Source: an uncultured Actinomycetes bacterium
GTDB taxonomy: Bacteria; Actinomycetota; UBA4738; HRBIN12
NCBI GenBank assembly: GCA_963771385.1
Contig: CAVYTE010000017.1
Span: 6,096-70,095 of the forward strand
Length of the DNA: 64,000 nucleotides
Direction: 5' to 3'
The position numbers and the translations under genes are program-made. Positions 34,233-52,531 of this stretch are shown here, piece after piece. The notes under the pieces were generated by a model, which saw only the letters and a list, made by a program, of their open reading frames with translations, did not search any database and had not been told where the DNA came from. Positions within the stretch are counted from its first letter, which is position 1. Each line of letters opens with the position of its first letter.

Positions 34233-36098
34233 ATGACTCCTGCACACGGATCCCACATCCTCAGCCGTCGCTCCGTGCTGAAGTTCGCCGGTGCGACGAG
34301 CGTCTCGCTGATCGCGGCGAGCTGCGTCGAAGATCGCTCGGCGCCAGCATCCGGCGGCGCCCCCCGCGGCGACCCCGTGCCGCTGGGCCCGGATCCCCCC
34401 GATCCGAACGACGTCGTGGCGATCACTGAGGAGGTGGTCCTGCGGACCGACCTCCGCGTTGCCGGGGTGGTCGTCGAGCCGAGCGGTCATCTCATCTTCG
34501 ACCCGAACGCATCCGTCACGCTGGAGAGCTCGGGCAACGTCGTCGTTCGTGGCCGCCTGACGGTGCGGGCGGACGATCCCGCGGTCATCCACCGCATCGT
34601 CTTCCCGCAGGTCGGCGAGGAAGCGTTCGTGGGCGGGGGGCTGTACGTGCTCGACTCCGATGTCGGGCTCTGGGTGGTCGATGACGGCAGCATGGACCTG
34701 GCCGGCGCGGCCCGACTGCCCTGGACCCTCGCCGTCGGCGATGTCCCCGCCGGCGTCGACGCCATCGAGGTGCGGGATGACCCGGCGGGTTGGCAGGTCG
34801 GGGACGAGATCGTCCTGACTCCCACCACGCCGCCCACGACCGAGGGCCACGCCGAGGCCTACGACGTGCGCACGATCGCGTCGATCGAGGGACGCAAGAT
34901 CGGGTTGGCCGACCCGGTGACCCACGATCACCCCGCGATCGCATCGGCCCGAGAGACCTTCCCGCCCGCGGAGGTGCTCAACCTCACCCGGAACGTCCAG
35001 ATCGAGGGGACGCCCGAGGGCCGCGCCCACGTCTTCATCCGGTCCAACAGCCCCCAGTCGATCCGCCACGTCCAGATCCGTCATGTCGGCCCCCGCCGGC
35101 CGGCAGCGGACGCGACGGAGGCCGTCCTCGGGCGCTACGGCCTCCACTTCCACATGTCGCACGAGGGCAGTCGCGGGAGCCTCGTCGAGGGCGTCGTGGT
35201 TCGTGAGTGTGGCAACCATGCCTTCGTGCCGCACATGAGCAACGGCATCACCGTTCGCGACTGCGTCGCGCACGACGTGACCGAGGACGCCTACTGGTGG
35301 GATCCGATCGACACGACCGACGACCTGCTGCTCGAGCGGTGCGTCGCCTCGCTGGTGCGAAGCGATCCACCTGGGCGAGGGTACGCCCTCTCCGGGTTCC
35401 TGCTCGGCACGGGACGGAGCAACGTCGCGCGGAACTGCATCGCCGTCGGCGTGCAGGGGAACAGCACGGCTGGCGGCTTCACGTGGCCGGCGCGCCCGGT
35501 CCTGGCCGGCAAGTACCCGTGGACGTTCGAGGACTGCGCCGCGCACAACAACCGCGTGCTCGGAGCCTACGTCTGGCAGAACACGATCACGGCCCAGGAG
35601 GTGGTCGGCTTCCTGGCGTACCAGAACGGGGGCTCCGGGATCCTCCACGGTGCGTACCGCAACCCCTACCTCTATCGAGACTGCGTCCTGTACGCGAACG
35701 GGGTGTCGGAGCTCGAGGTCCTCGCGCAAGCGAGCGAGGCGAGCATCGAGAGCGTCACGTTCGATCGACTCGTGTTCGACGGCAACGGATTCCACGACTT
35801 CGCGGTCACGACGGGCCATCACGCGGTCGAGGCCGTGAAGCCGGTCCGCTTCGAGGGGTGCGAGTTCCGCGGGTACCGCAGGGCGGGGTTCGCCGTCGAT
35901 CCGGCACGAGACGGCGGCCAGCCCGACTGGTTCGAACTCGTGGACTGCGTGTACGAGGGGAACGAGTTCTGGATCGACTCCGCGGCGCACCCGGATGCTC
36001 GGATCCAGGTATCGGACGCGGAGCACGGCAGCATCACGCTCCGCCGGTTCGACCAGCCGGGCACCCCGGTTCCCGCCTGGAACGCAAGCGTCAGCTGA
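34233..36098 (+). CDS. Tat-secreted G8-domain / right-handed beta-helix protein (candidate polysaccharide-degrading or -modifying enzyme)
   Basis: 621-aa intact ORF. It has a twin-arginine signal ('SRRSVLKFAGATSVSLIAASC'), a G8-like N-terminal region, 'LGRYGLHFHMS' and repeated beta-helix-like segments ('NGITVRDCVAHD', 'NVARNCIAVG'). Confidence 0.6.
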   Translation: MTPAHGSHILSRRSVLKFAGATSVSLIAASCVEDRSAPASGGAPRGDPVPLGPDPPDPNDVVAITEEVVLRTDLRVAGVVVEPSGHLIFDPNASVTLESSGNVVVRGRLTVRADDPAVIHRIVFPQVGEEAFVGGGLYVLDSDVGLWVVDDGSMDLAGAARLPWTLAVGDVPAGVDAIEVRDDPAGWQVGDEIVLTPTTPPTTEGHAEAYDVRTIASIEGRKIGLADPVTHDHPAIASARETFPPAEVLNLTRNVQIEGTPEGRAHVFIRSNSPQSIRHVQIRHVGPRRPAADATEAVLGRYGLHFHMSHEGSRGSLVEGVVVRECGNHAFVPHMSNGITVRDCVAHDVTEDAYWWDPIDTTDDLLLERCVASLVRSDPPGRGYALSGFLLGTGRSNVARNCIAVGVQGNSTAGGFTWPARPVLAGKYPWTFEDCAAHNNRVLGAYVWQNTITAQEVVGFLAYQNGGSGILHGAYRNPYLYRDCVLYANGVSELEVLAQASEASIESVTFDRLVFDGNGFHDFAVTTGHHAVEAVKPVRFEGCEFRGYRRAGFAVDPARDGGQPDWFELVDCVYEGNEFWIDSAAHPDARIQVSDAEHGSITLRRFDQPGTPVPAWNASVS

Positions 36099-37230
36099 CG
36101 GTGACGTCGGCGCCCGGAGCGGACACGCCGGCGATCGTCCGGTAGACCTCCGCGTAGCGCCGGGCGATCGTCGCGATGTCGAACCGCCCGTGGATCTGCT
36201 CCGTCGCGGCCCGGCCCATCGTGGCGCGGAGCGCCGGATCCGTCACGAGGCGGAGGAGGCCATCGGCCAGCGCCGCGCGGTCGCCGGGTGGCGCGAGGAG
36301 GCCGGTGACGCCGTCCTGCACGACCTCGGCGACCCCACCGACGTCGTACGACGCGACCGGCAGACCGGCGATTCCCGCCTCGATCAGCACCGCCGGCATC
36401 CCTTCGGTTCGGCTCGACAGCACGAGGACGTCCGACGCCGCGAGCAAGTTGCCGACGTCGTCTCGCGGACCGAGCAGCCGGATGCGCTCCGCGTGGCGGC
36501 CGGATCGCATCGCCGATCCCACTCGGGATCGCAGCGGTCCGTTCCCGGCCAGGACGAGGGACGCTCCCGGCACGACGTCGAGCACGCGTTCGGCCACGTC
36601 GAGCAGCGCGAGCGGATCCTTCTCCCACGTCAGCGCTCCGACCGCGAGCAGGATCGGCGCGTCGAGCTCCACCCCCAGGGAGGCGCGTACCGCATCGCGG
36701 GACCTGGAGGCCCGGACGCGATCGGGGTCGACGCCGTTCGGCACGACGAGGGTGCGATCGAGCCGGACGCCGTAGATCTCGACGGTCTCGCTCCGAACCA
36801 CCTCGGACACGCCGATCACGAGATCGGCCCTGCGGATCAACCATCCGTACACGTGGCGCCTGGCGGCGTCGGTCACCCACGGGTGCGCGGACCCGATCCT
36901 GCGATACACGACCGGGACCCCCGAACCGAGCGCCCCGGGGATCGAGTACTTCAGCGCCTCCCCGCCGTGCGCCTGCACGACCTGCGGGCTCCATCCCCGG
37001 ACCAGCCGGCGTAGCGACCGGGCCCGCGCGATCCCGAACCTGCCCGGCCGGCCGCCGCCCAGCGCGTGGGTCGGCGCGTCGAAGCTCGCGACGATGCCCT
37101 CCGTCGCTCGAAGGACGGCCACACGTTGCTCGAACCCCTCGCTCCGCAGTGCCCGGACGAGGTCCACGGCGAACAGTTCCGCTCCGCGACGTTCGTTCGT
37201 CGCGACGACGTGCAGCACGCGACCCGACAT
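36091..37230 (-). CDS. GT-B (GT4-type) glycosyltransferase
   Basis: 379 aa at the tail of ORF 36091..38328: 'VLHVVATNERRGAELF', 'GALTWEKDPLALL' and 'LVLSSRTEGMPAVLIEAGIAGLPVASYDVGGVAEVV'. Intact. Confidence 0.8.
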   Translation of the reverse strand: MSGRVLHVVATNERRGAELFAVDLVRALRSEGFEQRVAVLRATEGIVASFDAPTHALGGGRPGRFGIARARSLRRLVRGWSPQVVQAHGGEALKYSIPGALGSGVPVVYRRIGSAHPWVTDAARRHVYGWLIRRADLVIGVSEVVRSETVEIYGVRLDRTLVVPNGVDPDRVRASRSRDAVRASLGVELDAPILLAVGALTWEKDPLALLDVAERVLDVVPGASLVLAGNGPLRSRVGSAMRSGRHAERIRLLGPRDDVGNLLAASDVLVLSSRTEGMPAVLIEAGIAGLPVASYDVGGVAEVVQDGVTGLLAPPGDRAALADGLLRLVTDPALRATMGRAATEQIHGRFDIATIARRYAEVYRTIAGVSAPGADVTVS

Positions 37231-37232
37231 CC

Positions 37233-38402
37233 CTAGCCCCGCGACCGGTGTCCGCGCGACGACGTCAGCCAACGGACGGGAACGAGCCACCGATGGAGGT
37301 AGGAGGTGTGCCGCCCCCCATCCCTCGCCTTCACGAACTCGCGGTCGGGGAGCACGAGGGCCCGCACGTACGCGGCCTTTGCCCCGAGCCCGGGGATCGC
37401 TCGAAGCGTCGACCGCGCGGTCCCTCCGCGGCTCCGCCGGTCGGTGAGGTACGCGTCCAACGCGCGCTGCTCGCGTGGGTCGATCTTCGCCTGGATGATC
37501 GAATGGGCGAGCGGCGGCGGTTCCACGCCGAGCACCGTCCGGGCCTCCTCCAGCGAGCGCCGAACCACGGCTCGAAGCCGCCATCGGTCGGCGAGCACGT
37601 CCAACTCCGCCCAGTCCACGTCTCCGATCGCCGCGATCTGGGCGACGTCGCGCAGCGGGACCAGCCGGACCCGGCGGGAGCCGAGGACCGCGTGCATGCA
37701 CGCGTGCAGGAACGCCCTCGTGTCGTCGAGCCGCCGGAAGGCCCGACCGCCGATCGAGAGCTCCGTGGTGCCCTCGAAGAGTCCCTCCGGCTCCATCCAG
37801 AGCCCGAACGGGCCGAGCACCAGGGTCCGGTGGAGATCGATCTGGACGCCGTCGGGACCGATATGGGTCGCGGCCTTGCCGAACCGCTCGTCGAAGCCCC
37901 GGCGTGGTTCCGGGAGCCGGCGTCGGAACCCGGCCGTCGCGAGCGCGATGCAGGCCGCTTGCCAGTCCGCCGTGCTGACGAGCAGATCGAGGTCGCCGAA
38001 CGATCGCCACGACGGATCGGGATAGAACGCGCGCGCCACGGCCGGGCCCTTCAGGACCAGGAACTCGATCCCGGCGTCCTGGAGCGAAGGGGTCACCTCG
38101 AGGAGGCGGCGCTCGAGCTGCAGCGCGACCGTCATCGCTCCGCGGTGCCGCTCGAGCAGTTGATCCGCGTCCGCCTCTGCGAGCGCCAGGGCGCCGGCCT
38201 CGAGCGCCGCGACGCCCAGGCCGGTCAGCCGCTGCGACCCGAGCCAGGCCATCGTCGCCGGCCACGCGTTGGACGCAACGGCGCGTTCGCCCGCCACGCT
38301 CCCCGGGACACCGAAGGCGGCGATCCACCGGGCCGTCGAGAGCGGGTCGGGCGCGGGCTCTCGCGTCGATCCGTCCGCCGCCAGATGCGCGGCCTCCGTC
38401 AT
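37233..38402 (-). CDS. Nucleotidyltransferase-family protein (PF14907 / NTP_transf_5-like)
   Basis: 389-aa intact ORF with 'IEFLVLKGPAVARAFYPDPSWRSFGDLDLLV' and 'IDLHRTL'. It is translationally coupled to the PqqD gene upstream and lies 3 nt from the GT start downstream. Confidence 0.6.
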   Translation of the reverse strand: MTEAAHLAADGSTREPAPDPLSTARWIAAFGVPGSVAGERAVASNAWPATMAWLGSQRLTGLGVAALEAGALALAEADADQLLERHRGAMTVALQLERRLLEVTPSLQDAGIEFLVLKGPAVARAFYPDPSWRSFGDLDLLVSTADWQAACIALATAGFRRRLPEPRRGFDERFGKAATHIGPDGVQIDLHRTLVLGPFGLWMEPEGLFEGTTELSIGGRAFRRLDDTRAFLHACMHAVLGSRRVRLVPLRDVAQIAAIGDVDWAELDVLADRWRLRAVVRRSLEEARTVLGVEPPPLAHSIIQAKIDPREQRALDAYLTDRRSRGGTARSTLRAIPGLGAKAAYVRALVLPDREFVKARDGGRHTSYLHRWLVPVRWLTSSRGHRSRG

Positions 38403-38677
38403 CGGGCGACCCGTTCCACCCAGCCTCGCCGCTGCAGCTCGTCCAGGAACGCCTCGACGTCTGCCAGCACGGCCCGCTCCTGCTGCCCGAAGGCCTCCGC
38501 GACGAGCCGGGTGACCTCCCCCGGTGCCCTCGGTACGTCGAGGACGTGCCAGACGGCGGCCGCCGTGCCCGAGAGCCGGTCGATGTCGGCGTGCCCCGCG
38601 GCCGTCAACAGGACGTCGCCTCCGACGTTGCGGACGAGCATGTCGGGGGATCGCCGCAGCTGGATCCGATCGCTCAC
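38399..38677 (-). CDS. PqqD-family protein (RRE-type peptide chaperone), copy 1
   Basis: 92 aa from GTG 38677 (overlaps the upstream stop, GTGA): 'RRSPDMLVRNVGGDVLLTAAGHADIDRLSGTAAAVWHVLDVPRAPGEVTRLVAEAFG..VEAFLDELQRRGWV'. Confidence 0.65.
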   Translation of the reverse strand: MSDRIQLRRSPDMLVRNVGGDVLLTAAGHADIDRLSGTAAAVWHVLDVPRAPGEVTRLVAEAFGQQERAVLADVEAFLDELQRRGWVERVAR

Positions 38678-39984
38678 AGCACCACGACGTTCGAGCGATG
38701 GTCCGGGCCGAAGGCGTTCCGCGCGTCGAAGACCACGCTCGCGTGGTTGGCGATCCAGTCGAGATCGTACGCCGCGTGCGGCGTCAGGATCGCGACGCAA
38801 TCGGCGGCCTCGACGGCGGGCCTCGAGAGCTCGGTCCGCGTCACGTGCAGACCGTTCACGCTGATGGTGTCCACGAAGGGGTCGTGGTACTCGATCACCG
38901 CACCGCGCCGATGCAGCTGGGCCATCACCCGGAGGGCCGGCGATTCGCGAACGTCGCCGACGTCGGCCTTGTACGACACGCCGAGCACGAGGATGCGTGC
39001 GTCCTTCACGGCCTTGCCCGCGTCGTTCAGGGCCTCACCGATCCGCTGCGCGACGTAGGTCGGCATCTGCGCGTTGATGTCCTGCGCCTGCTCGAGGATC
39101 CGGAACTGGTGGCCGGCGTCGCGCCGGATCTGCCACGAGAGGTAGGTCGGGTCGAGCGGGATGCAGTGCCCACCCACGCCGGGGCCCGGGTAGAAGGTCA
39201 TGAACCCGAAGGGTTTGGTCGAGGCGGCGTCCACGACCTCCCACACGTCGATCCCCACCTCGTGACACAGGATCGCGATCTCGTTCACGAACGCGATGTT
39301 CACGTGGCGGAAGGTGTTCTCCAGCAGCTTGCTGAGCTCCGCGGTTCGGCACGACGAGACCGGAACGACCTTGTCGACGAGCTGGCCGTAGAACAGGACG
39401 GCCACACCGGTCGATTCGGCGGACACCCCACCGACGATCTTCGGCGTGTTCCGCAGGTCGAACTCGTCGTTGCCCGGGTCGATCCGCTCCGGGGAGTACG
39501 CGAGGAGGAAGTCGCGTCCACCCTGCAGACCCGAGCGCTCCAGGATCGGCATGACGAGCTCCTCGGTCGTACCCGGGTACGTCGTCGACTCCAGGACGAC
39601 GAGCCCGCCGGGCTTGAGATGCTCGGCGACGGCCTCGGTCGCCTGCTCGACGTGGGTGAGATCCGGGGCGTGGTCCCGGACCGGCGTCGGGACGCAGATC
39701 AGGACGATGTCACAGTCCGAGATCACCTCGGGATCGGTCGTGAACTCGACCCGGCCGCTCGCCATGCCGGCCCGGTAGAGCTCCTCCCGGACACCCGCGA
39801 CCGAGAGCGTCCCCTGACGGAGGTCGGAGAGGCGTGCGTCATCGACGTCGATCCCGTACACGCTGAATCCGGCCTCCGCCGCGGCGCACGACAGCGAGAG
39901 GCCGACGTACCCTTGTCCGATCACGCCGATCCTCGCTTTGCGCGCGAGGATCCGGCGCCGGAGCAGCGCGGTCGTCTTGATGAT
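38674..39984 (-). CDS. UDP-sugar / nucleotide-sugar 6-dehydrogenase (UDP-glucose/GDP-mannose dehydrogenase family)
   Basis: ORF 38674..39924 contains 'GQGYVGLSL', 'AYSPERIDPG' and 'PGPGVGGHCIPLDP'. GTG 39924 would truncate Rossmann strand beta-1 ('RIGVIG' is encoded just upstream). GGAGG at 39988..39992 is followed by ATC ATC (39984, 39981). The start is therefore uncertain. Confidence 0.8.
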   Translation of the reverse strand: MIKTTALLRRRILARKARIGVIGQGYVGLSLSCAAAEAGFSVYGIDVDDARLSDLRQGTLSVAGVREELYRAGMASGRVEFTTDPEVISDCDIVLICVPTPVRDHAPDLTHVEQATEAVAEHLKPGGLVVLESTTYPGTTEELVMPILERSGLQGGRDFLLAYSPERIDPGNDEFDLRNTPKIVGGVSAESTGVAVLFYGQLVDKVVPVSSCRTAELSKLLENTFRHVNIAFVNEIAILCHEVGIDVWEVVDAASTKPFGFMTFYPGPGVGGHCIPLDPTYLSWQIRRDAGHQFRILEQAQDINAQMPTYVAQRIGEALNDAGKAVKDARILVLGVSYKADVGDVRESPALRVMAQLHRRGAVIEYHDPFVDTISVNGLHVTRTELSRPAVEAADCVAILTPHAAYDLDWIANHASVVFDARNAFGPDHRSNVVVL

Positions 39985-40040: not shown

Positions 40041-40829
40041 TTACGACTCTCGGTTCGCGAGCGGATCGGGCGTGGCCCGCCGGGCGCGACGGGGCGCGCC
40101 CCCCCGGAGGGCTCGTTTCATCCGTCGTTGCGCCAGGAACAACCGGTCGGGCACGCTGCGCGTGCGATCCCCGAACCGCTCCCGCACCTCCTCGAGATGG
40201 GTCATCGCGGGCGCGTACTCCTCGAGGTCGCGGCCGAAACCGGACACGTCGTCCGGCGACCAATGGTTGTGATGCAGGCAGACGGTCCACACGCCGGGCG
40301 GCTGCGGCTTGAACCTCCAGCTCTGCATCGGGACCCAGAACGTGCCGGCTCGATCCCGATACGGGGACAGGGCGAGCCCGTCGCTGACCACCTCGACCCC
40401 GCAGGCGAGCAGGGCCGCGACGGTCGACCGGTCGAACGCATGGTTCGGGGCTACCCAGGCCTCGGGGACGACCCCGTGCTCGCGGAAGATCGCCGTGCCG
40501 GCCCGCAGCTTCTCGAGCTGCTCCTCGTACGCCAGGCCGGCGAACTCGCTGCGTGCGTTCCAGCCGAACAGCCCCGGATCCTCCGACACGTAGAGGTGCT
40601 GGTACCCGTGCAGGGCGATCGCCCAGCCCCGCGCCTGCCAGTCACGAACCCGCTCCCAGAAATCCGCCGCCGCGGGCTCGAGCTCGAGCGACGGGTCTCG
40701 GTTGTCCGGGATGACGGCGAGGATCGGCCGCACGCCGGTCTCCACGAGCAGCCGTTCGACCTGCTCCCAGATCGTCCAGTTCATCGTCGGACACAGGTCG
40801 TCGAACCGCACGAGGTAGGTGGCCTTCAT
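40041..40829 (-). CDS. DUF2334-domain protein (polysaccharide-deacetylase-like fold)
   Basis: 262-aa intact ORF with 'YLVRFDDLCPTMNWTIWEQVERLLVETGVRPILAVIPDNRDPSL' and 'GWAIALHGYQH'. Confidence 0.65.
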   Translation of the reverse strand: MKATYLVRFDDLCPTMNWTIWEQVERLLVETGVRPILAVIPDNRDPSLELEPAAADFWERVRDWQARGWAIALHGYQHLYVSEDPGLFGWNARSEFAGLAYEEQLEKLRAGTAIFREHGVVPEAWVAPNHAFDRSTVAALLACGVEVVSDGLALSPYRDRAGTFWVPMQSWRFKPQPPGVWTVCLHHNHWSPDDVSGFGRDLEEYAPAMTHLEEVRERFGDRTRSVPDRLFLAQRRMKRALRGGAPRRARRATPDPLANRES

Positions 40830-43734: not shown

Positions 43735-43756
43735 GCAATCCCGCCGGGCGCCATCG

Positions 43757-44920
43757 TCACAGCCCCAGATCGCGCGCGATGATGCGACGCTGGATCTCCG
43801 AGGTCCCCGAATAGATCGTGCCGCCGACCGCGTCGCGCAGCGACCGTTCGACCTCGACCTCGGTCATGTACCCGTATCCCCCATGGATCTGCACGGCGTC
43901 CAGTTGCGTTCGGACGTTCGCCTCGCTCACGAACGCCTTGGCCACCGCGGCCTCCACCGTGGCGTCCCTGCCCGCATCCATGAGCCAGCCGACCCGGAGC
44001 ACGAGCGCGCGGGCGGCGTCGACCGCGATCCGCATGTTCGCGATCTTGTCGGCGACGGAACCGAACTTGCCGATCGGTTGTCCGAACTGGCGACGTTGGC
44101 GCGCGTACTCCGCGCAGCTCTCCATCGTCCGGCGCATGAGCCCGACCTGGCTGGCCATGATGCAGGCGCGTTCCCACCGCATCGACTCCTGGAAGATCTC
44201 GCCTCCCCGCCCGCGCTCGCCGAGGATCGCCTCCTCCGGCACGGAGCAGTCATCGAGGATGACTTCGGACATCGGCGAGGTCCGAAGGCCCATCTTGTCG
44301 AACTCCCGACTGACGGAGCACCCACGCGTTCCGCGCTCGACGAGGAACGCGGTGATCCCGAAGGGTCCGATCCCCTCGGAGGTGCGGGCGAACACGATGA
44401 GGAGGTCCGCGACCGGCGCGTTCGTGATGAAGACCTTCCGTCCGTCCAGGGCGTACCCCCCCGGCACGCGCCGGGCGGTCGCCCGCATGGCGAACGCGTC
44501 GGACCCCGCCTCGGGCTCGGTGATCGCGTGGCACCCGATCAGCCCTCCCGAGCACAGACCCGGCAGCCATCTCGCGCGCTGCTCCTCGGACCCGAACCGC
44601 CACAGGGGGATCACGCTCGTCCACAGGTGTGCGTTGATCGAGAACACGAGCCCATTGTCGCGACAGCCGTACCCGAGTCCCTCCAGCGCAAGCATCGTCG
44701 TGACGACGTCGGCTCCGCCGCCCCCGAGGTCCTGCGGGACGGGCAACCCCTGGATCCCGAACGCCCCGCACCGGTCCCACACCTCGCGCGAGAACTCCGC
44801 GCTCCGATCCCGCTCGCGCGTGTCGTCCGGAAGCGTCCGCGCGAACCGCGTCACGGCCTCGAAGAACTCCGACTGCTCGGGGGTGACCCACTCGACGACC
44901 GACGGGGCCGACACCGTCAC
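43757..44920 (-). CDS. Acyl-CoA dehydrogenase-family flavoprotein (probably acts on an acyl/aminoacyl-S-carrier protein)
   Basis: 387 aa from GTG 44920 (GTGA overlap with the ACP stop): 'GCHAITEPEAGSDAFAM', 'FITNAPVADL', 'QIHGGYGYM' and 'IYSGTSEIQRRIIA'. Confidence 0.8.
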   Translation of the reverse strand: MTVSAPSVVEWVTPEQSEFFEAVTRFARTLPDDTRERDRSAEFSREVWDRCGAFGIQGLPVPQDLGGGGADVVTTMLALEGLGYGCRDNGLVFSINAHLWTSVIPLWRFGSEEQRARWLPGLCSGGLIGCHAITEPEAGSDAFAMRATARRVPGGYALDGRKVFITNAPVADLLIVFARTSEGIGPFGITAFLVERGTRGCSVSREFDKMGLRTSPMSEVILDDCSVPEEAILGERGRGGEIFQESMRWERACIMASQVGLMRRTMESCAEYARQRRQFGQPIGKFGSVADKIANMRIAVDAARALVLRVGWLMDAGRDATVEAAVAKAFVSEANVRTQLDAVQIHGGYGYMTEVEVERSLRDAVGGTIYSGTSEIQRRIIARDLGL

Positions 44921-45162
44921 TGCTGCGCGACCCGGGAGTTCACGAGGTTGTCGATGTCCGCGATCGTACGGAAGTGCTCGACGGTCACCTCTTCGTCCTG
45001 CACCTCGATGTCGAACTCCTCCTCGAGGAACGCGACGAGCTGCATGAGTCCGAGCGAATCGAGGACCCCGTCGAGCAACGGCGTCTCGTTCGTGAGGGCG
45101 ACGGAGTCGTCCTCGAAGAGGATCTCGGTCTGGATGAAGCCGCGGATGCGATCGGCGTTCAT
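44917..45162 (-). CDS. Acyl/peptidyl carrier protein (ACP-2), paralogue of ACP-1
   Basis: 81 aa at the tail of ORF 44917..45510, starting 'MNADRIRGFIQTEILF' and containing 'LLDGVLDSLGLMQLVAFLEEEF'. AAGGAG lies upstream of ATG 45162. Confidence 0.85.
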   Translation of the reverse strand: MNADRIRGFIQTEILFEDDSVALTNETPLLDGVLDSLGLMQLVAFLEEEFDIEVQDEEVTVEHFRTIADIDNLVNSRVAQQ

Positions 45163-45212
45163 GGGAACGCTCCTTTCCGTGATCGATGCTCGTGCGGATG
45201 TGGCGCCGGCCG

Positions 45213-45572
45213 CTACGCCGCGACCTGCGGATCGCCCAGTTGCACGATCCGCCGGATGGCGCTGCCCCGGAGACGGAAGCACTGCCGCCTCGAGACGCCG
45301 AGCTCCTGCGCGATCTCGCCGACACCGAGCTCGCGCAGGTACCACAGGATCAGGACCAGACGGTCGCGCTCGGGGAGGAGCAGGAAACGCCGGCGGAGCT
45401 CGGACCGCTCGTCCAAGGAGTCGACCAGACCGGGATGCAGACCGTCGTGTCCGCTCCGTGTGCGTCGGGCGTGGCCGACCTCGATCACCGACGAGGTCGA
45501 CGGCTGCCACCAGTCCGTGTACCGCAGGAGGCCTCGAACCACGCCGCCTTCGGACGCAAGTAGGTCCGACAT
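45213..45572 (-). CDS. Small sigma-70 region-4-like HTH protein (no region 2 recognisable)
   Basis: 119 aa at the tail of ORF 45213..46262: 'LLLPERDRLVLILWYLRELGVGEIAQELGVSRRQCFRLRGSAIRRI'. Confidence 0.55.
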   Translation of the reverse strand: MSDLLASEGGVVRGLLRYTDWWQPSTSSVIEVGHARRTRSGHDGLHPGLVDSLDERSELRRRFLLLPERDRLVLILWYLRELGVGEIAQELGVSRRQCFRLRGSAIRRIVQLGDPQVAA

Positions 45573-47694: not shown

Positions 47695-49586
47695 GGGACC
47701 ACCACCGCGGCTCGAGGGAAGTCCTCGGCGAACGACTTGACGCGAGCCGCCAGCTCCGTCCGTTCGCCGGCGGTGCTCAGCGACTCGAGCTCACGCAGGG
47801 CGCCCCGCAACGAGGGGCGGTCGGGAACGGGTGGCCGCGACATCACGATCCCCGGGTGCGTCGTGGCGACCGGGTGCTCGTCGGGGTTCACGAGCTCCTC
47901 GATCAGCCGTTCCCCCGGTCGGGCGCCGACGAACTCGATCTCGACGTCGCGACCCGGGACCCGGCCCGAGAGCAGGATCAGCTTGCGTGCCAGACCCATG
48001 ATGTTCACGGGCTCACCCATCTCGAGGGTGAAGACCTCGCCGCCCTCGGACAGCGCGGCCGCCTGCAGGACGAGCTGGACCGACTCCTGCACGCTCATGA
48101 AGTACCTGGCCATGTCGGGAGCGGTGACCGTGACCGGGCCTCCCCGCCGGATCTGCTCGAGGAACGTCGGGATCGACGCTTCCGCGGCTCCCCAGGACGT
48201 TGCCGAACCGCACGGCGCAGAACACGCAGTCCATCCCGTGGATGCTCCGCACGATCTGCTCGGCGAACCACTTCGTCGCGCCCATGACGCTGACGGGGCG
48301 GACCGCCTTGTCCGTGGAGATCAGGATGAATCGCGTCACCCCGGCCGCGACGGCCGCATCGGCGACGTTGGCGGTTCCGATCACGTTCGTGAGCACCGCC
48401 TCTTCCGGGATGCGCTCCAGGACCGGCACGTGCTTGTGCGCTGCCGCGTGGAAGACGACCTCGGGGCGGTGGTGCATGAAGACGCCGAAGATCCGGTCGC
48501 GATCGCGGACGTCGGCGAGGACCTGTTCGATGACGACCGTGCCGTCGTCGACCTGCAGGACGACGTCGTGCAGGTGCGTCTCGTCGTGATCCAACACGAT
48601 GATCGAGGCGGGTTCGAACTCGGCGATCTGCCGCGCGATCTCGGAGCCGATCGAACCTCCCGCTCCCGTGACCAGGATCCGACGCCCACGGAGCGTGGCG
48701 GCGACCGACTCCAGGTCCGTCGTCACCTGCTGGCGGCCGAGGAGGTCCTCGATCTGGAGGTCGCGGATGTCCTTGGCCGAGATCTTCCCGTCGACGACCT
48801 CCTGGACGGTCGGGAGGACGCGCAGCATGACGTTGGCCTCCTCGCACACGGCGGCCACCTCGCGAACCTGCTCCTCGGTGGCGGAGGGGATCGCCAGCAG
48901 CACCTCCTCGACGTCGAGCCGGTCGACGAGGGCAGGGATCGCCGAGCGGTCGCCCGAGCACCGGCACCTCGTGGAGGGCGAGGCCGATCTTCCGTCGGAT
49001 CGTCGTCGACGAACCCGACCGGCTCCAACTCGACGGAGGGGTTCTCCAGGATGTCCTTCAGGACCATCGACCCGGCGGCACCGGCGCCGACGAGCAGGAC
49101 CCGGGGCCGGGGGTTCGGGCCGACGGAACGCCGGCGCAACGCGAACAACCGGCTCTGGAAGCGGATCGCGCCGAACCCGATGAGCGACAGCACCGAACCC
49201 ATGATCACGACCGAACGGGGCAATGGTTGCTCCCACAGCCAACCGACGGCCGCGTTGACGCCGATCACGAAACCGCCGCCGACGAGGGCGGCGATCGCCA
49301 CCCGGCGCGCCTCCTGGACGCTCGCGTACCGCCACATCTGCCCGTAGAGCCCGTAGACATGGTTCGCGGTCAGGTGGATGAGCCCGACGACGGGGATGAA
49401 CAGCCAGAAGTAGGTCCAGTACGTGTCCGGAACGCGTCCGTCGAACCGCAGGACGAGGGGACCCAGGTAGGCCGGCAACACCACGGCGAGATCGAGGAGC
49501 GCGAGCGGGACGTTGCGGCGAACACGCCGAGACACCGACGTCGCGAGCCCGTCGTGCCTGCCCCGCCGCCCGTTCCCGATCGCCAT
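47691..49586 (-). CDS. CapD/WbpM/PglF-type membrane-anchored nucleotide-sugar 4,6-dehydratase; two frame breaks
   Basis: The N-terminal TM region lies in ORF 48723..49640 from ATG 49586 ('LALLDLAVVLPAYLGPLVL', 'VLLVGAGAAGSMV'). The core lies in ORF 48013..49650 ('ILVTGAGGSIGSEI', 'VFHAAAHKHVP', 'ISTDKAVRPVSVMGATK'). The C-terminus lies in ORF 47691..48113 ('MARYFMSVQESVQLVLQAA'). Breaks lie at ~48975 and ~48175. Confidence 0.8.
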
Positions 49587-49722: not shown

Positions 49723-50190
49723 ATGAACGGCGGATGCGCCATGCGGCCCAGGCCCCGAGACTCAGGCTGCATGAACGACCTCGAGGGAAGCGATCGGTAC
49801 GAGCGCTCCCTCCTGGAGGACGACGGTGCAACTGCCGACACGCCGACCGCGATCGAGATGCGTACGGACGTCCCCCGGACGCTCGTGACCGTACCCGACG
49901 GGTACCGTCCACGACGCCGTGAAGGCGTGCTCGACATCGACATGGGCGACGGTTTCATCCTGTTCGACGAGTCGTCGAGCCTCGTCCACCACCTGAACCC
50001 CTCCGCGACGTTGATCTGGCAGCTGTGCGACGGCACGGGAACCGTCGCGGACCTCGCCGGGGACATCGCCGCCGAGTACGGGCTCGACGAACCGACCATC
50101 CGGAGCCAGGTCGCCGAGGTGATCGCCGAGTTCGATGCACTCGAACTCGTCCAGGATGAACGGAACCTCTTCTCGGAGCGAGATCGATGA
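49723..50190 (+). CDS. PqqD-family protein (RRE-type peptide chaperone), copy 2
   Basis: Contains 'VLDIDMGDGFILFDESSSLVHHLNPSATLIWQLCDGTGTVADLAGDIAAEYGLDEPTIRSQVAEVIAEFDALELV'. The start could also be ATG 49771. Confidence 0.7.
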   Translation: MNGGCAMRPRPRDSGCMNDLEGSDRYERSLLEDDGATADTPTAIEMRTDVPRTLVTVPDGYRPRRREGVLDIDMGDGFILFDESSSLVHHLNPSATLIWQLCDGTGTVADLAGDIAAEYGLDEPTIRSQVAEVIAEFDALELVQDERNLFSERDR

Positions 50191-50289
50191 CCTACGCCCC
50201 ATGTCGTAGGGCGACCGAAGGCATCGCGAACCGACGCGATCGACGTGGCGACTCGCTGGGACGCGGACCCGACCCGATGCTCCGGTATC

Positions 50290-50305
50290 TACGCACACGT
50301 GCGTA
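50290..50305. promoter_or_regulatory. 7-2-7 inverted repeat TACGCAC-AC-GTGCGTA, candidate NarL/LuxR-family operator upstream of the Cys-rich ORF
   Basis: The arms are perfect 7-bp repeats, ~85 nt upstream of ATG 50390. A TATCAT -10-like hexamer lies at 50329..50334. The same heptamer (GTGCGTA 49656..49662) plus TACGCCG (49670..49676) lies in the capD/pqqD-2 divergent intergenic region. Confidence 0.35.
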
Positions 50306-50389
50306 TCGCCGAGCGTCAACGCAGTCCGTATCATGGCCCCGCGGCACGACGCCTGTGCGACGTGGCCTCCGGGCGGAAGGACCCACTGG

Positions 50390-50794
50390 ATGAGCAACCG
50401 TGATCGTGAGGATCTGAACCGGCGCGACTTCCTTCGGAAGGCTGCGCTGACCACCGCAGCCGCCGCGTGGGCGGCCCCGGTGATCCAGACGGTGGCGGCG
50501 ACCCCGGCATTCGCTCAGGCCCAGGGAACCCCGCCTCCGACCTCCGATGAGCCCTGCGGCCACTCCACCGGCCTGAACGGTGGCTGCATGGGAGCCTGCG
50601 CCAGTGTGTGCGGGGGCAACCAGTGCGGCGGTCAGTCGAACGGTCGGAACCAGGTGGCCGGCCCCTGCACGACGTACTGCGCGCCCGGCCAGGGCAACGA
50701 CAACCCGTGCGCCAACCCGGGTCTGTGCGAGCCGGGGAACTTCGTGTGTAGCCCCGACCAGCAGGGCGTCGCGACCTACACCGGCCCGCTGTAG
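50390..50794 (+). CDS. Small secreted Cys-rich protein with twin-arginine signal (candidate substrate/precursor of the PqqD/HprK-like module)
   Basis: 134 aa starting at aa 20 of ORF 50333..50794. The signal is 'MSNRDREDLNRRDFLRKAALTTAAAAWAAPVIQTVAATPAFAQA'. The 90-aa mature part has 10 Cys, including 'CMGACASVC', and is rich in Gly/Asn/Pro. GGAAGGA lies upstream of the ATG. Confidence 0.6.
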   Translation: MSNRDREDLNRRDFLRKAALTTAAAAWAAPVIQTVAATPAFAQAQGTPPPTSDEPCGHSTGLNGGCMGACASVCGGNQCGGQSNGRNQVAGPCTTYCAPGQGNDNPCANPGLCEPGNFVCSPDQQGVATYTGPL

Positions 50795-50814: not shown

Positions 50815-51639
50815 TCAGGTCAGGCGTTCCGCGAGCAAGGCTGCCCGTTCCCTCGGCGTGCCGCCCCGCAGCTCGAAGGCCTCCGCCTCCTGCGCAACCC
50901 GCGTGAGGAGCACGACGCCGCGCTCCTGGTACCGGTAGAGGTTGAAACAGTTCGCCGCCATCCGACGGACGGCGTCGGCTCGCGGGACGGGCTCCAGACG
51001 CGGGGGGCCCGATCGCTCCATCCCCACGAAGACGAGCCATGATGGCGGTGCCGCCTCGGCGGCGGCCGCGCCCAGGTCCTCCGGTCGCACGTATCGCTGC
51101 GAGAGCGAAACACCGCTCTCCGTCCGGTCGACGAGCCGGTCGCGCAGGCCGTCGAAGTGCTCGAGGGCGTCATCGTCCAGGCTGATCCGCTTCGGGAAGG
51201 GGTAGGCCCTCCCGGTGACCGGATCGAGCGCGCCGAGCTCGTCGGACAGGTACCCGAACCCGAGCTCCAGCAGTGCGACCACGAGCGAGGACTTCCCCGC
51301 GTCCATCTCGGCCGGCAGCACGAGCGCTCGGCCGTCACGGGCGACGGTCCCGGCGTGCAGGAACAGGAAGTCTCGCGACCCCTTCGGGACGGTCGCGTGC
51401 AGATCCCAGACGGCGTGCCCGAGCAGACGCTCCAGCTGCGCGTGCCGGTAGCGGAGCAGTCCCCCGCGGTAGAGCGACCGGGGCGGCGGCGTGACGTCCT
51501 CGTCCTCTTCGTCCACGAACAGATCGACGAACACGGCGTGGTGGTCGCCGCCCGGACGCCGGAACGGCGCGAGGTGCCAGGCGAGCGCGGCCGAGAACCG
51601 CTCGTCCACGGAACGGACCGTGTACGAGGTGGAGAGCAT
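50815..51639 (-). CDS. HPr-kinase-related kinase (HprK-related kinase A/B type) with intact P-loop
   Basis: 274-aa ORF with 'FLHAGTVARDGRALVLPAEMDAGKSSLVVALLELGFGYLSDE'. A conserved coding-like extension (GWVATDHYR) lies upstream of the ATG, up to an in-frame TGA at 51685..51687. Confidence 0.65.
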   Translation of the reverse strand: MLSTSYTVRSVDERFSAALAWHLAPFRRPGGDHHAVFVDLFVDEEDEDVTPPPRSLYRGGLLRYRHAQLERLLGHAVWDLHATVPKGSRDFLFLHAGTVARDGRALVLPAEMDAGKSSLVVALLELGFGYLSDELGALDPVTGRAYPFPKRISLDDDALEHFDGLRDRLVDRTESGVSLSQRYVRPEDLGAAAAEAAPPSWLVFVGMERSGPPRLEPVPRADAVRRMAANCFNLYRYQERGVVLLTRVAQEAEAFELRGGTPRERAALLAERLT

Positions 51640-51718: not shown

Positions 51719-52531
51719 TCATCGGCCAGCCGACCCACCTCCCTCCGGAACCGTCTGCTCGAGCAGGAGCCGGGCAGCATCGGGGAGCGATCCGACGACG
51801 AGTTCGGCGACGCGGGCGTTCCGGAGCACGTCGCGGAACACGAGCAACGCTCGGTCCGCCCAGATGTGCAGGTTGAGACCCGCCTGCGTGAACCGGAAGA
51901 GCGCCTCGGCCGCCCCGATAGGCCGGAGCTCCGACGGACTCCCCGGTTCGAACGTCGGGAAGATCACCCCGCCCGGATCCGCCGGCTCGGCCAGGCGTCC
52001 CCCGAGCTCGTCCAGACGCACCGGTCGCCGAGGCTCCCTCGCGCCGTCCTCGCGCGCTCGCCGGCGGCTCGGCGACGACGAACGGCCCAGCTCCGGGAAG
52101 AGCGCGAGATCGCTCTCCGCGAGGAGCAACGGGATCGACGAGCCGTGCACCCGGCGCATGACCGGGTCGAGGTTCACGATCTCGTCGCCGAGGTAGCCGG
52201 CGCCGGATCGCACGAGGAGCGCCACCAACGCGGGGAGATGCGGCGCGGGGACCGAGGGCAGGATCAGCGCACGGCCGTCCACCACGACCCCGCCCGCCCG
52301 GATGCGGATGAACTCGTTCGAGGAGCGCGTCGCGATGTCACGGACGCCGGAGATCAACCGTCCCGCCATCTCGTCCGGCGCGTACCCCTCGTAGATCTTC
52401 AGACCGCCGACGAACAACCGCTGGCGCGCGCGGACCTGCTTGCCGCCGGCGAGCGTGCGCTGGATCCCGCAGTCGGCGGAGAAGCGCAGCTCGTCGGACG
52501 CGTCCGGGTCCAGGAACCGCTGCAAGGGCAC
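51719..52531 (-). CDS. HPr-kinase-related paralogue with degenerate P-loop (probable pseudokinase partner)
   Basis: 270-aa ORF with 'IRIRAGGVVVDGRALILPSVPAPHLPALVALLVRSGAGYLGDE', aligning with the neighbouring kinase but without GKS. Homology to its paralogue continues ~29 codons upstream of GTG 52531 ('GWVASDRYSVEGTEFAVRATDPAF'), so the true start is unresolved (up to 52639). Confidence 0.6.
   Translation of the reverse strand: MPLQRFLDPDASDELRFSADCGIQRTLAGGKQVRARQRLFVGGLKIYEGYAPDEMAGRLISGVRDIATRSSNEFIRIRAGGVVVDGRALILPSVPAPHLPALVALLVRSGAGYLGDEIVNLDPVMRRVHGSSIPLLLAESDLALFPELGRSSSPSRRRAREDGAREPRRPVRLDELGGRLAEPADPGGVIFPTFEPGSPSELRPIGAAEALFRFTQAGLNLHIWADRALLVFRDVLRNARVAELVVGSLPDAARLLLEQTVPEGGGSAGR

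What the first reader, a model, noticed from the sequence alone, without database searches (positions are those of the whole stretch)
50390..50794. Small Tat-exported protein with 10 Cys and a CxxxCxxxC core: unrecognised family and candidate precursor
Seen: the signal 'NRRDFLRKAALTTAAAAWAAPVIQTVAATPAFAQA' has a twin-Arg, an h-region and an AxA site. The 90-aa mature part has 10 Cys with spacings 9-3-3-4-13-3-9-5-6, 18 Gly, many Asn/Pro, and no obvious secondary-structure repeats. Its ATG has its own SD and lies directly downstream of a PqqD gene. Inference: Tat export of a Cys-rich small protein implies folding, cofactor loading or modification in the cytoplasm before export. That would fit pre-export processing by the neighbouring enzymes, or metal or cluster binding. 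I recognise no family for it.
Basis: partly seen in the sequence, partly recalled or inferred. Interest (0 to 1): 0.7.

Follow-up and report, generated by a model that had tools for sequence, protein, structure and literature searches.

The report
Tat-leader protein tied to PqqD/HprK cassette
This is a real, conserved gene for a small exported protein held together by disulfide bonds, and its unusually conserved twin-arginine signal peptide looks like the address tag that a neighbouring peptide-chaperone and kinase cassette uses to find the proteins it acts on, a pairing not described before.

Summary
ORF 50390-50794 (+) is coding. It has at least 91 homologues at the 90% cluster level, all from uncultured Actinomycetota. 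No Pfam, NCBIfam, PDB sequence or PDB fold match exists beyond the Tat signal.

1. The cysteines are almost always even in number (10 or 12) and are gained or lost in pairs. The mature part is therefore a disulfide-rich extracytoplasmic domain, not an obvious metal or cluster site.
2. The signal peptide is far more conserved than the mature part (73% vs 31% pairwise identity). It carries an invariant WxxP[VI][VI] motif at a fixed distance from the twin arginines.
3. The same leader is fused to about as many unrelated passenger domains, some with LPxTG sortase signals. Leader-bearing genes, whatever the passenger, sit next to HprK-like kinase, PqqD and NTP_transf_5 genes: 29 of 31 loci of at least 3 kb have an HprK-like gene.

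The nearest tested precedent is lasso-peptide tailoring. There a PqqD-type RRE binds a YxxPxL leader motif and an HprK-like kinase phosphorylates the precursor. HprK1 keeps the catalytic residues in the same spacing.

Best reading: this protein is a client of leader-guided modification before Tat export. No chemistry has been shown. I rate it a new variant of a known kind.

The parts
50390..50794 (+). Gene for the 134-aa Tat-leader, Cys-rich protein ('TatCys')
   Evidence: ORF and sequence. GC3 is 0.86. 91 homologous clusters. An identical public protein, P0001, has the same start.
50375..50381 (+). Shine-Dalgarno-like GGAAGGA, 8 nt upstream of the ATG
   Evidence: Read directly from the sequence. 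The block is partly conserved in L006 and L001.
50390..50515 (+). Leader, a twin-arginine signal peptide (residues 1-42). R11-R12 lie at 50420-50425. The predicted cleavage is AFA|Q after A42; the alternative is AQA|Q after A44.
   Evidence: TIGR01409 scores 20.9 bits against a cutoff of 16.7. Mean pairwise identity is 0.73 in the leader and 0.31 in the mature part. The cleavage site is inferred from the conserved AxA, not tested.
50468..50485 (+). W27-A-A-P30-V-I32, the WxxP[VI][VI] core motif of the leader and candidate PqqD/RRE recognition site
   Evidence: W27 is conserved in at least 90% of sequences and P30 is invariant. Both are invariant in leaders with unrelated passengers. 226 of 231 RR-bearing relatives have [WYF]xxP, mostly 16 residues after the first Arg. 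It resembles the lasso leader motif YxxPxL (PMC10368454). Binding is inferred.
50516..50791 (+). Mature exported part (residues 43-134). It begins with a conserved G-T47-P48 (T47 at 50528-50530). The disulfide-rich domain follows, starting at C56-x-H58-S59 (S59 at 50564-50566).
   Evidence: C56, C66 and C70 are invariant. H58, S59, C79, C93, C97, C113 and C120 are conserved in at least 90%. Cysteines keep even parity and are gained or lost in pairs. AF2 pLDDT is 75-91 over residues 60-134. There is no PDB fold match.
49723..50190 (+). PqqD-family (RRE-type) peptide chaperone gene
   Evidence: PF05402, E 2e-14. The best NCBIfam hit is TIGR04353, the 'HPr-rel-A system PqqD', at 33.8 bits against a cutoff of 35. 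A profile of the orthologues hits the lasso B1 proteins TfuB1 and TbiB1 and PqqD in the PDB.
50815..51639 (-). HprK1, an HprK-related kinase with catalytic residues retained
   Evidence: TIGR04352, E 2e-28, at 99 bits (below the cutoff of 200). H95, G115 and K116 are invariant; S117, D133 and E134 are conserved in at least 90%. Their spacings of 21 and 17 equal those of the lasso kinase BsfK (H148/K169/D186; PMC10368454). The AF2 model has pLDDT 93.6 and matches PEPCK and HPrK/P folds.
51719..52531 (-). HprK2, an HprK-related paralogue without the P-loop and a likely pseudokinase partner
   Evidence: TIGR04352, E 1e-11. All 17 orthologues have PS.P.PHLPAL in place of GKS and Arg in place of the catalytic His, but keep YLGDE.
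38402..38701 (-). Second PqqD-family gene (bounds approximate)
   Evidence: PF05402, E 7e-10.
37233..38402 (-). NTP_transf_5 'uncharacterised nucleotidyltransferase' gene
   Evidence: PF14907, E 2e-33. In relatives the domain is fused to a GT1 glycosyltransferase and lies directly upstream of the TatCys gene.
36091..37290 (-). GT4/GT1 glycosyltransferase gene just downstream of NTP_transf_5 (start approximate)
   Evidence: PF00534, E 2e-31, and PF13439, E 1e-19. It matches the C-terminal half of the NTP_transf_5-GT fusion of L004.

Best explanation
The ORF encodes a small secreted protein with two modules.

**Module 1: the leader.** It is a specialised twin-arginine signal peptide, RRxFLRKAAxTxAAAAWAAPVIQTVAATPAFA. 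It is much more conserved than an ordinary signal and carries a fixed WxxP[VI][VI] motif.

**Module 2: the passenger.** It is a 90-aa hydrophilic domain rich in Gly, Pro and Asn. Its ten cysteines form five disulfides after export.

**Proposed mechanism.**
1. The leader serves both as export signal and as recognition tag for the adjacent cassette.
2. The PqqD-type chaperone binds the WxxPxI segment, as lasso-peptide B1 proteins bind YxxPxL.
3. PqqD presents the protein to HprK1, an active HprK-type kinase, probably paired with the P-loop-less HprK2.
4. HprK1 phosphorylates a conserved Ser or Thr. Candidates are T47 in the conserved [ST]-P just after the cleavage site, S59, or T34.
5. The NTP_transf_5 and glycosyltransferase genes of the locus may extend the phosphate with sugar, as in pseudomycoidin.
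6. The modified, bulky protein then leaves through Tat. The signal is cut at AFA|Q and the disulfides form outside the cell.

**Shown:** gene reality, conservation, leader and passenger architecture, Cys covariation, gene linkage, and catalytic-residue retention.
**Inferred:** binding, phosphorylation, glycosylation, Tat dependence, and the extracellular role of the domain.
For: **Gene reality and conservation.**
- The gene is real and conserved.
- The leader has 0.73 pairwise identity against 0.31 for the mature part.

**Linkage in the TatCys family.**
- In every locus with enough flank, the TatCys gene is followed within about 100 nt by convergent HprK1 and HprK2 orthologues.
- PqqD lies directly upstream or within about 5 kb, often with an NTP_transf_5-GT fusion.

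**The link follows the leader.**
- A metagenome scan seeded only with leaders of unrelated passengers again found HprK-like, PqqD or NTP_transf_5 genes beside them.
- Those loci often carry 2-3 tandem leader genes.
- Overall, 31 non-redundant loci of at least 3 kb carry a leader gene. 29 have an HprK-like gene, 24 have PqqD and all 31 have at least one cassette gene.
- L052 shows the cassette outside any polysaccharide locus.

**The motif.**
- [WYF]xxP sits at a fixed distance from RR in 226 of 231 relatives.
- A divergent leader lineage (L055) keeps YxxP[IL]V and is also followed by PqqD and an HprK-like gene.

**The enzymes.**
- The PqqD profile hits lasso B1 RREs in the PDB.
- HprK1 keeps H, GKS and DE in the same spacing as the lasso kinase BsfK (PMC10368454).
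- BsfK phosphorylates core Ser3, needs the leader, and is accelerated by its RRE.
- PsmK and PsmN phosphorylate and then hexosylate a lasso precursor (PMC6993621).

**Export.**
- Some leader-bearing passengers end in LPxTG or LAxTG sortase signals, so the leader is a true export signal.
- Even Cys parity and paired Cys gain and loss indicate extracytoplasmic disulfides.
Against: - No biochemical data exist for any member, and all homologues come from uncultured MAGs.
- The HprK-like proteins score well below the NCBIfam cutoff (99 and 44 bits against 200). The window's PqqD is just below its cutoff.
- The HprK1 P-loop is partly degenerate (AEMDAGKS). G163 of BsfK, reported as important, aligns with Ala.
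- The identity of NTP_transf_5 (PF14907) with lasso PsmN/BsfN was not tested here.
- In the window the nucleotidyltransferase lies 12 kb away.
- Gene linkage could reflect co-regulation within cell-envelope loci rather than an enzyme-substrate relation.
- The high leader conservation could partly reflect paralogous expansion within one phylum.
- One locus, L026/L027, has only NTP_transf_5 within 8 kb.
- The modified residue is unknown.
- A 90-aa disulfide domain is atypical for a RiPP core.
Confidence: 0.55

Rival explanations
1. Neighbour but not substrate. The protein is an ordinary Tat-secreted, disulfide-rich cell-envelope or matrix protein that is merely co-located and co-regulated with a polysaccharide locus. 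The PqqD/HprK/NTP_transf_5 cassette acts on a different, unidentified peptide or on the glycan. The conserved leader would reflect lineage-specific Tat preferences and recent paralogy.
For: - The window locus is a polysaccharide-type cluster: GT4 glycosyltransferases, UDP-glucose dehydrogenase, a CapD-like gene, a Wzz/tyrosine-kinase-like gene, and an AMP-ligase/ACP/ACAD trio.
- No modification has been shown.
- The canonical HPr-rel-A families are defined in NCBIfam. I found no described client in the text library.
Against: - The link persists across unrelated passengers, across two leader lineages, and in a locus with no polysaccharide genes.
- No other small-ORF candidate is conserved next to the cassette in the loci examined.
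- The invariant WxxP motif at a fixed register is not a general Tat feature. The best generic Tat signal in the PDB scores only 14.6 bits against the family profile.
Confidence: 0.22
2. Cofactor protein. The conserved Cys, His and Met residues (C56-x-H58, G-C66-M67-x-x-C70) bind a metal or Fe-S cluster that is loaded in the cytoplasm, which is why Tat is used. The neighbours would be unrelated, or would assist loading.
For: - C56, C66 and C70 are invariant, H58 is near-invariant and M67 is mostly conserved.
- Tat is classically used for cofactor-bearing proteins.
- Small Tat-exported Cys proteins such as HiPIP exist (general knowledge).
Against: - Cys counts are even in 117 of 121 family members.
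- The second Cys of the CC doublet and the C-terminal Cys co-occur: 43 sequences have both, 14 have neither, 2 are discordant.
- Loss of C120 always comes with loss of one upstream Cys, in 6 of 6 cases. This pattern points to disulfides.
- There is no sequence or fold similarity to any solved metalloprotein.
- The same leader carries passengers with no Cys at all.
Confidence: 0.1
3. Secreted antimicrobial or toxin. The domain is a bacteriocin-like, knottin-like effector. Its hypervariable passengers and tandem paralogues would reflect an arms race, and the cassette would install an activity-conferring modification.
For: - Passengers are hypervariable behind a conserved leader, and 2-3 leader genes often lie in tandem.
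- The architecture is small and disulfide-rich.
- The cassette has RiPP-type relatives.
Against: - No immunity gene, ABC exporter or protease gene is conserved beside it.
- Several passengers are sortase-anchored surface proteins.
- The locus context is cell-envelope biosynthesis.
Confidence: 0.08

Closest known systems
Lasso-peptide tailoring module: PqqD-type RRE (B1), HprK-like kinase (PadeK/ThcoK/PsmK/BsfK) and nucleotidyltransferase (PsmN/BsfN)
   Same: - The same three protein types sit next to the gene for their peptide substrate.
- The kinase needs the leader and is accelerated by the RRE (PMC10368454).
- The leader motif YxxPxL at -17 to -12 parallels W27xxP30xI32, at about -16 to -11 here.
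- The catalytic His/Lys/Asp-Asp register is preserved in HprK1 as H95, K116 and D133-E134.
- The PqqD profile hits TfuB1 and TbiB1.
   Different: - No lasso cyclase or B2 protease lies in or near the cassette.
- The 'leader' is a cleavable Tat signal.
- The 'cores' are whole domains or proteins of about 75-430 aa.
- There are two kinase paralogues, one without a P-loop.
- The nucleotidyltransferase is often fused to a GT1 domain.
- No product is known.
NCBIfam 'HPr-rel-A system' (TIGR04352 HprK-related kinase A, TIGR04353 PqqD family chaperone)
   Same: These are the best NCBIfam hits for the neighbours. The PqqD of relative L004 passes the TIGR04353 cutoff, at 41.8 bits against 35.
   Different: - The window's proteins fall below the cutoffs: 33.8 against 35, and 99 and 44 against 200.
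- There is no hit to kinase B (TIGR04355).
- I found no description of the system, and none of a Tat-leader client, in the text library.
Bufferins and other signal-peptide-bearing RiPP precursors (DUF2282 with MNIO and DUF2063 RRE)
   Same: These are small Cys-rich precursors with an N-terminal export signal. They are paired with an RRE-containing partner and modified before export (mentioned in PMC12710340; the rest is from general knowledge).
   Different: - They carry a Sec signal, not a Tat signal.
- Their modifying enzyme is an MNIO oxidase, not a kinase.
- In bufferins no specific signal-peptide motif is thought to be recognised, whereas here the motif lies inside the signal peptide.
- No MNIO or DUF2063 gene is found here.
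Tat signal-binding proofreading chaperones (TorD/DmsD/NapD class)
   Same: Conceptually, a dedicated cytoplasmic protein binds a specific Tat signal peptide and holds the substrate until maturation is complete (general knowledge).
   Different: The fold family is different (PqqD/RRE), the maturation would be a covalent modification rather than cofactor insertion, and nothing has been tested.

Membership tests
Twin-arginine (Tat) signal peptide | An [ST]-R-R-x-F-L-K-type n-region, a hydrophobic h-region and an AxA c-region | tested here: met
   The sequence reads N-R-R-D-F-L-R-K, then an Ala-rich h-region, then AFA/AQA. TIGR01409 scores 20.9 bits against a cutoff of 16.7. PF10518 is below its cutoff, at 16.7 against 22.7.
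Twin-arginine (Tat) signal peptide | Export that depends on TatABC and on the RR pair | not testable with these tools
   This needs RR to KK and tatC-deletion experiments. Indirect support: some passengers behind this leader carry LPxTG or LAxTG sortase signals.
RiPP-type precursor (leader plus core recognised by an RRE) | A conserved leader, a hypervariable core, and an RRE-domain protein encoded nearby | tested here: met
   Leader identity is 0.73 against 0.31 for the mature part. There are 121 TatCys-type and 110 other passengers behind the same leader. PqqD lies nearby in 24 of 31 loci of at least 3 kb.
RiPP-type precursor (leader plus core recognised by an RRE) | Enzyme-dependent covalent modification of the core | not testable with these tools
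   No member has been expressed. This needs mass spectrometry.
Lasso peptide biosynthetic cluster | A lasso cyclase (Asn-synthetase-like C) and a B2 transglutaminase-like leader peptidase | tested here: not met
   None is found among the genes within about 15 kb in the window, nor within 8-10 kb in orthologous loci with precomputed Pfam.
Lasso peptide biosynthetic cluster | A YxxPxL leader motif bound by the B1 RRE | tested here: inconclusive
   An analogous WxxPxI (YxxP[IL]V in L055) sits at a similar distance from the cleavage site. Binding was not tested.
HPr kinase-like peptide kinases (lasso PadeK/BsfK type) | A conserved His...G-K-S...D-D catalytic motif on an HPrK/PEPCK-like fold | tested here: met
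   For HprK1, the residues are H95, G115-K116-S117 and D133-E134, with spacings of 21 and 17 as in BsfK. The AF2 model (pLDDT 93.6) matches PEPCK and HPrK/P at E from 6e-5 to 1e-3. The second Asp is Glu, and the upstream P-loop glycines are degenerate.
HPr kinase-like peptide kinases (lasso PadeK/BsfK type) | The same motif, tested in HprK2 | tested here: not met
   All orthologues have the His replaced by Arg and GKS replaced by PHLPAL. Only GDE is kept.
NCBIfam HPr-rel-A system (TIGR04352/TIGR04353) | Scores above the curated cutoffs | tested here: not met
   The window's PqqD scores 33.8 against 35. HprK1 scores 99.1 and HprK2 44.2 against 200. The PqqD of L004 passes at 41.8. I treat the cassette as a divergent relative.
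Known small Tat-exported metalloproteins (e.g. HiPIP) or MNIO-modified bufferins | Sequence or fold similarity, or the partner genes MNIO (DUF692) and DUF2063 | tested here: not met
   There is no Pfam, NCBIfam or PDB hit to the mature part. No such partner genes are present. Cys parity points to disulfides.

The most novel reading that the evidence does not exclude
A whole class of actinobacterial exported proteins uses its Tat signal peptide as a RiPP-style leader. A PqqD/RRE chaperone reads a WxxP[VI][VI] motif inside the signal's h-region. It recruits an HprK1/HprK2 kinase-pseudokinase pair, and often an NTP_transf_5-glycosyltransferase, to phospho(glyco)sylate the protein in the cytoplasm. 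It also gates Tat export until that modification is done. This would be a general protein phosphoglycosylation-and-export pathway rather than a natural-product pathway.
Probability: 0.4. Interest if true: 0.85.

Novelty: new variant of a known kind. Interest (0 to 1): 0.72.

Why it matters
If correct, the finding would do four things.
- It would give the uncharacterised HprK-related/PqqD cassettes (NCBIfam 'HPr-rel-A' type) their first candidate clients.
- It would extend RRE-guided, leader-dependent modification from short natural-product peptides to whole secreted and surface-anchored proteins.
- It would show a Tat signal peptide acting both as export signal and as enzyme-recruitment tag.
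- It would give a rationale for Tat use, namely export of a bulky protein that has already been modified.

It would also define a new disulfide-rich extracellular domain family with no known fold, found so far only in uncultured Actinomycetota (soil source suggested by sample names, not checked). The leader HMM and cassette HMMs give a direct way to find clients in genomes. The proposed chemistry can be tested by simple co-expression and mass spectrometry.

Tried and rejected
1. **PDB searches of the family.** The profile search against PDB sequences returned only generic Tat signals (NosZ, 14.6 bits). Foldseek of the AF2 model returned no match at E<=10. No known fold can be assigned.
2. **Contexts of the Cys domain behind other, generic Tat signals** (P0143, P0165, P0142). 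All contigs were about 1 kb, so they were uninformative. The same was true of P0214.
3. **Metagenome scan with the 18-sequence alignment A3.** I repeated it with the leader-only alignment A4.
4. **Literature.** I found no paper on 'HprK-related kinase', TIGR04352/3/5 or HPr-rel-A, none combining HPr kinase, PqqD and exopolysaccharide, and none combining twin-arginine with RiPP and PqqD. The two RRE-survey papers mention neither kinases nor Tat.
5. **HprK1 homologue search.** It returned only close actinobacterial relatives, so it gave no view of other phyla.
6. **Rfam, promoter and terminator scans** around the gene found nothing.
7. **Rejected: a HiPIP-like or metal-cluster reading.** The grounds are Cys parity and covariation.
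8. **Rejected: a lasso or MNIO cluster.** The defining enzymes are absent.
9. **Rejected: the alternative start at 50333.** Homologues and the identical public protein begin at the 50390 Met.
Full report
**1.

The ORF runs from ATG 50390 to TAG 50792-50794 and encodes 134 aa. Its third-position GC is 0.86, against 0.64 and 0.62 at positions 1 and 2. The overlapping antisense ORFs carry the high GC at position 2, so they are shadows. GGAAGGA lies 8 nt before the ATG. The 90-aa remainder has 10 Cys with exactly the stated spacings, plus 18 Gly, 11 Pro and 8 Asn. TIGR01409 (Tat signal) is the only family model passed.

The upstream gene (49723-50190, +) is PqqD, at PF05402 E 2e-14. The two convergent downstream genes (50815-51639 and 51719-52531, both -) are distant HprK-related kinases, at TIGR04352 E 2e-28 and 1e-11, both below the curated cutoff.

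**2. A real but unrecognised family**

A search of 5.8 billion proteins gave 91 clusters, from 100% down to 38% identity. All come from uncultured Actinomycetota, and none is named beyond 'twin-arginine translocation signal domain-containing protein'. A profile search of 1.84 billion representatives gave 715 hits at E<=1e-3 and 86 at E<=1e-10.

The family profile finds nothing in PDB sequences except generic Tat signals at no more than 14.6 bits. An AF2 model reaches pLDDT 75-91 over residues 60-134. It shows a few short helices and a small β-bridge, and has no Foldseek match in the PDB at E<=10.

**3. The cysteines behave as disulfides**

- Family members have 12 Cys (60 of 91) or 10 Cys (22 of 91). 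The rare odd or low counts are mostly in truncated or frameshifted entries.
- In a wider set, 117 of 121 family members have an even count.
- The window's subgroup lacks two cysteines together: the second Cys of the 'NPCCNPGLC' doublet and the C-terminal Cys. Across 59 scorable sequences, 43 have both, 14 have neither and 2 are discordant.
- Loss of C120 is always accompanied by loss of one upstream Cys, in 6 of 6 cases. By inspection this is C74, and it recurs in several lineages.

Paired gain and loss with preserved parity is what disulfide partners do. I therefore read the mature part as a five-disulfide extracytoplasmic domain. A metal or cluster site becomes a minor alternative. The conserved C56-x-H58-S59 and G-C66-M67 remain unexplained.

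**4. The leader is the more remarkable half**

Mean pairwise identity is 0.73 in the leader and 0.31 in the mature part. R11, R12, F14, R16, T21, W27, P30, T34, P39 and the AFA site are invariant or nearly so.

The profile search also recovered many proteins that match only the leader. Their mature parts are unrelated:
- β-rich domains ending in 'ISHVELxFCC';
- other Cys-rich modules;
- Pro-rich proteins ending in LPxTG or LAxTG sortase signals.

Among 231 RR-bearing relatives, 121 have the TatCys domain and 110 have other passengers. Of the 231, 226 carry [WYF]xxP, mostly exactly 16 residues after the first Arg. A short [ST]-P follows the AxA site in most leader types read. The sortase-signal passengers show that the leader is a genuine export signal.

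Conversely, the Cys domain also occurs C-terminally behind generic Tat signals and Thr-rich linkers (P0142, P0143, P0165). It is therefore an autonomous domain.

**5. Gene linkage follows the leader**

*TatCys-family loci.* In every locus from the genome and metagenome collections with enough flank, the gene is followed within about 100 nt by convergent HprK1 and HprK2 orthologues. PqqD lies directly upstream or within about 5 kb. In many loci a 735-747-aa NTP_transf_5 (PF14907)-GT1 fusion lies immediately upstream.

*The window.* The nucleotidyltransferase (37233-38402, -) and a GT4/GT1 gene (36091-37290, -) are separate genes 12 kb away, preceded by a second PqqD (about 38402-38701, -).

*The decisive test.* I scanned metagenome contigs with an alignment of leaders taken only from proteins with other passengers. 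The hits were again flanked by HprK-like, PqqD or NTP_transf_5 genes, often with 2-3 tandem leader genes.

*Pooled counts.* There are 31 non-redundant loci of at least 3 kb with a leader gene.

| Cassette gene nearby | Loci (of 31) |
|---|---|
| HprK-like | 29 |
| PqqD | 24 |
| NTP_transf_5 | 13 |
| At least one of these | 31 |

The two loci without an HprK-like gene are one that ends 70 nt after the leader gene, and L026/L027, which has only NTP_transf_5.

*Two further points.* Two contexts reached from the kinase side both contain a TatCys gene, and one of them (L052) lies outside any polysaccharide locus. A lineage with a divergent leader (L055: RRVVVATGAKLAYTVPIVAAS) has three tandem leader genes, one carrying the Cys domain. 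They are followed by PqqD and an HprK-like gene with a full P-loop. It keeps YxxP[IL]V.

**6. The enzymes**

- **PqqD.** A profile of the PqqD orthologues hits a 'PqqD family protein' (9x8z_B, 6e-8), the lasso RREs TfuB1 (4e-6) and TbiB1 (1e-5), and PqqD itself.
- **HprK1.** The orthologues keep H95, G115-K116-S117 and D133-E134. The His-to-Lys spacing of 21 and Lys-to-Asp spacing of 17 equal H148, K169 and D186 of the characterised lasso kinase BsfK (PMC10368454). The AF2 model has pLDDT 93.6 and matches ATP-dependent PEPCK and HPrK/P. The profile also aligns, weakly, to HPr(Ser) kinase over this core.
- **HprK2.** The orthologues have uniformly lost the His and the GKS but keep GDE. I read HprK2 as a conserved pseudokinase partner.

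**7. Mechanism proposed, with precedent**

In lasso pathways:
- an HprK-like kinase phosphorylates the precursor before leader removal;
- BsfK acts on Ser3 of the core, requires the leader, and is strongly accelerated by the PqqD-type RRE BsfB1;
- the leader carries YxxPxL at -17 to -12 (PMC10368454);
- PsmK and PsmN add phosphate and then hexose (PMC6993621; PMC9266682).

Here W27-x-x-P30-x-I32 lies at -16 to -11 from the predicted AFA|Q site. A conserved Thr47-Pro48 lies 20 residues after W27, compared with 19 residues between Tyr(-17) and Ser3 in BsfA.

I therefore propose that PqqD binds the WxxPxI segment of the Tat leader and HprK1 (with HprK2) phosphorylates a conserved Ser or Thr. The NTP_transf_5 and GT enzymes may extend the phosphate, and Tat then exports the modified protein. 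A bulky, already modified passenger would explain the use of Tat. The hydrophilic Gly/Pro/Asn-rich composition, with very few hydrophobic residues, fits a substrate that Tat tolerates before its disulfides form. That last point is an inference from general knowledge. None of the binding or chemistry is shown.

**8. Comparison with known systems**

| System | Verdict | Reason |
|---|---|---|
| Lasso cluster | Not a member | No cyclase or B2 protease |
| MNIO/bufferin cluster | Not a member | Partner genes absent |
| NCBIfam HPr-rel-A families | Divergent relative | Below the curated cutoffs |

The system works most like the lasso tailoring module, but applied to Tat-exported proteins. I found no description of it in the text library.

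My ratings:
- Novelty: new variant of a known kind.
- Gene and family: about 0.95.
- 'Client of the cassette via the leader': about 0.6.
- Specific phospho(glyco)sylation chemistry: about 0.45.

Noticed in passing
window 47700-49568 (-): The CapD-like polysaccharide biosynthesis gene (Polysacc_synt_2) is split over frames -3/-2/-3, with breaks near 48980 and 48140-48190. Its orthologue in the closely related locus L006 (TatCys protein 90% identical) is intact in one frame. It is either a pseudogene or carries indel errors of a long-read MAG assembly.
   Followed up: yes
window 50189-50210 and 50290-50305 (PqqD-TatCys intergenic region): There are two inverted repeats. CCTACG-N8-CGTAGG lies right after the PqqD stop, and the 16-nt palindrome TACGCACACGTGCGTA lies further on. 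Their cores are conserved in L006 and, partly, in L001 (protein 70% identical). They are possible operators for the LuxR/GerE regulators of the locus. No sigma-70-like promoter, terminator or Rfam match was found.
   Followed up: partly
window 51719-52531 (-) and orthologues in L001-L021: HprK2 is a conserved P-loop-less paralogue. The catalytic His is Arg, and GKS is replaced by PHLPAL. It is always encoded next to the intact HprK1, which suggests a kinase-pseudokinase pair.
   Followed up: partly
L039 6176-6640, L042 702-1250, L044 8-613, L046 2332-3303: Proteins with the same Tat-type leader carry Pro-rich, Cys-free passengers that end in LPxTG or LAxTG plus a TM segment and a basic tail. 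These are sortase substrates. L039, L042 and L046 lie next to PqqD, and L039 and L046 also next to an HprK-like gene; L044 is too short to tell.
   Followed up: partly
L055 951-3710 and 3727-4892: A second leader lineage (RRxVVxxGxKLAYxxP[LI]VAAS) is present on three tandem genes with unrelated passengers, one a 481-aa low-complexity protein. They are followed by a 93-aa PqqD and an HprK-like gene with a canonical GQSGQGKST P-loop (precomputed Pfam: ScmC, faint; Hpr_kinase_C, weak).
   Followed up: partly
window 40041-45510 (-): Upstream of the cassette lies a run of genes: a DUF2334/polysaccharide deacetylase, a GT4, an AMP-dependent ligase, an acyl-CoA dehydrogenase, an ACP and a sigma70_r4 protein. 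From memory, this resembles the acyl-ligase/ACP sets of exosortase-associated EPS loci. No exosortase was looked for.
   Followed up: no
window 34233-36098 (+): A 621-aa protein has CEMIP beta-helix and G8 domain matches. It is a possible secreted glycan-binding or glycan-degrading protein next to the NTP_transf_5/GT4 genes.
   Followed up: no
window 61123-63012 (-): A single 629-aa ORF combines TsaD (residues 7-291) with a complete NAD-dependent epimerase/dehydratase (residues 322-622). It is either a fusion or an assembly artefact that merges two genes.
   Followed up: no
L002/L004/L007/L009/L013 (gene directly upstream of TatCys, divergent): The NTP_transf_5 domain is fused to a GT1 glycosyltransferase in one 735-747-aa protein. 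This fits the published suggestion that lasso PsmN-type nucleotidyltransferases work together with a glycosyltransferase (PMC9266682).
   Followed up: partly
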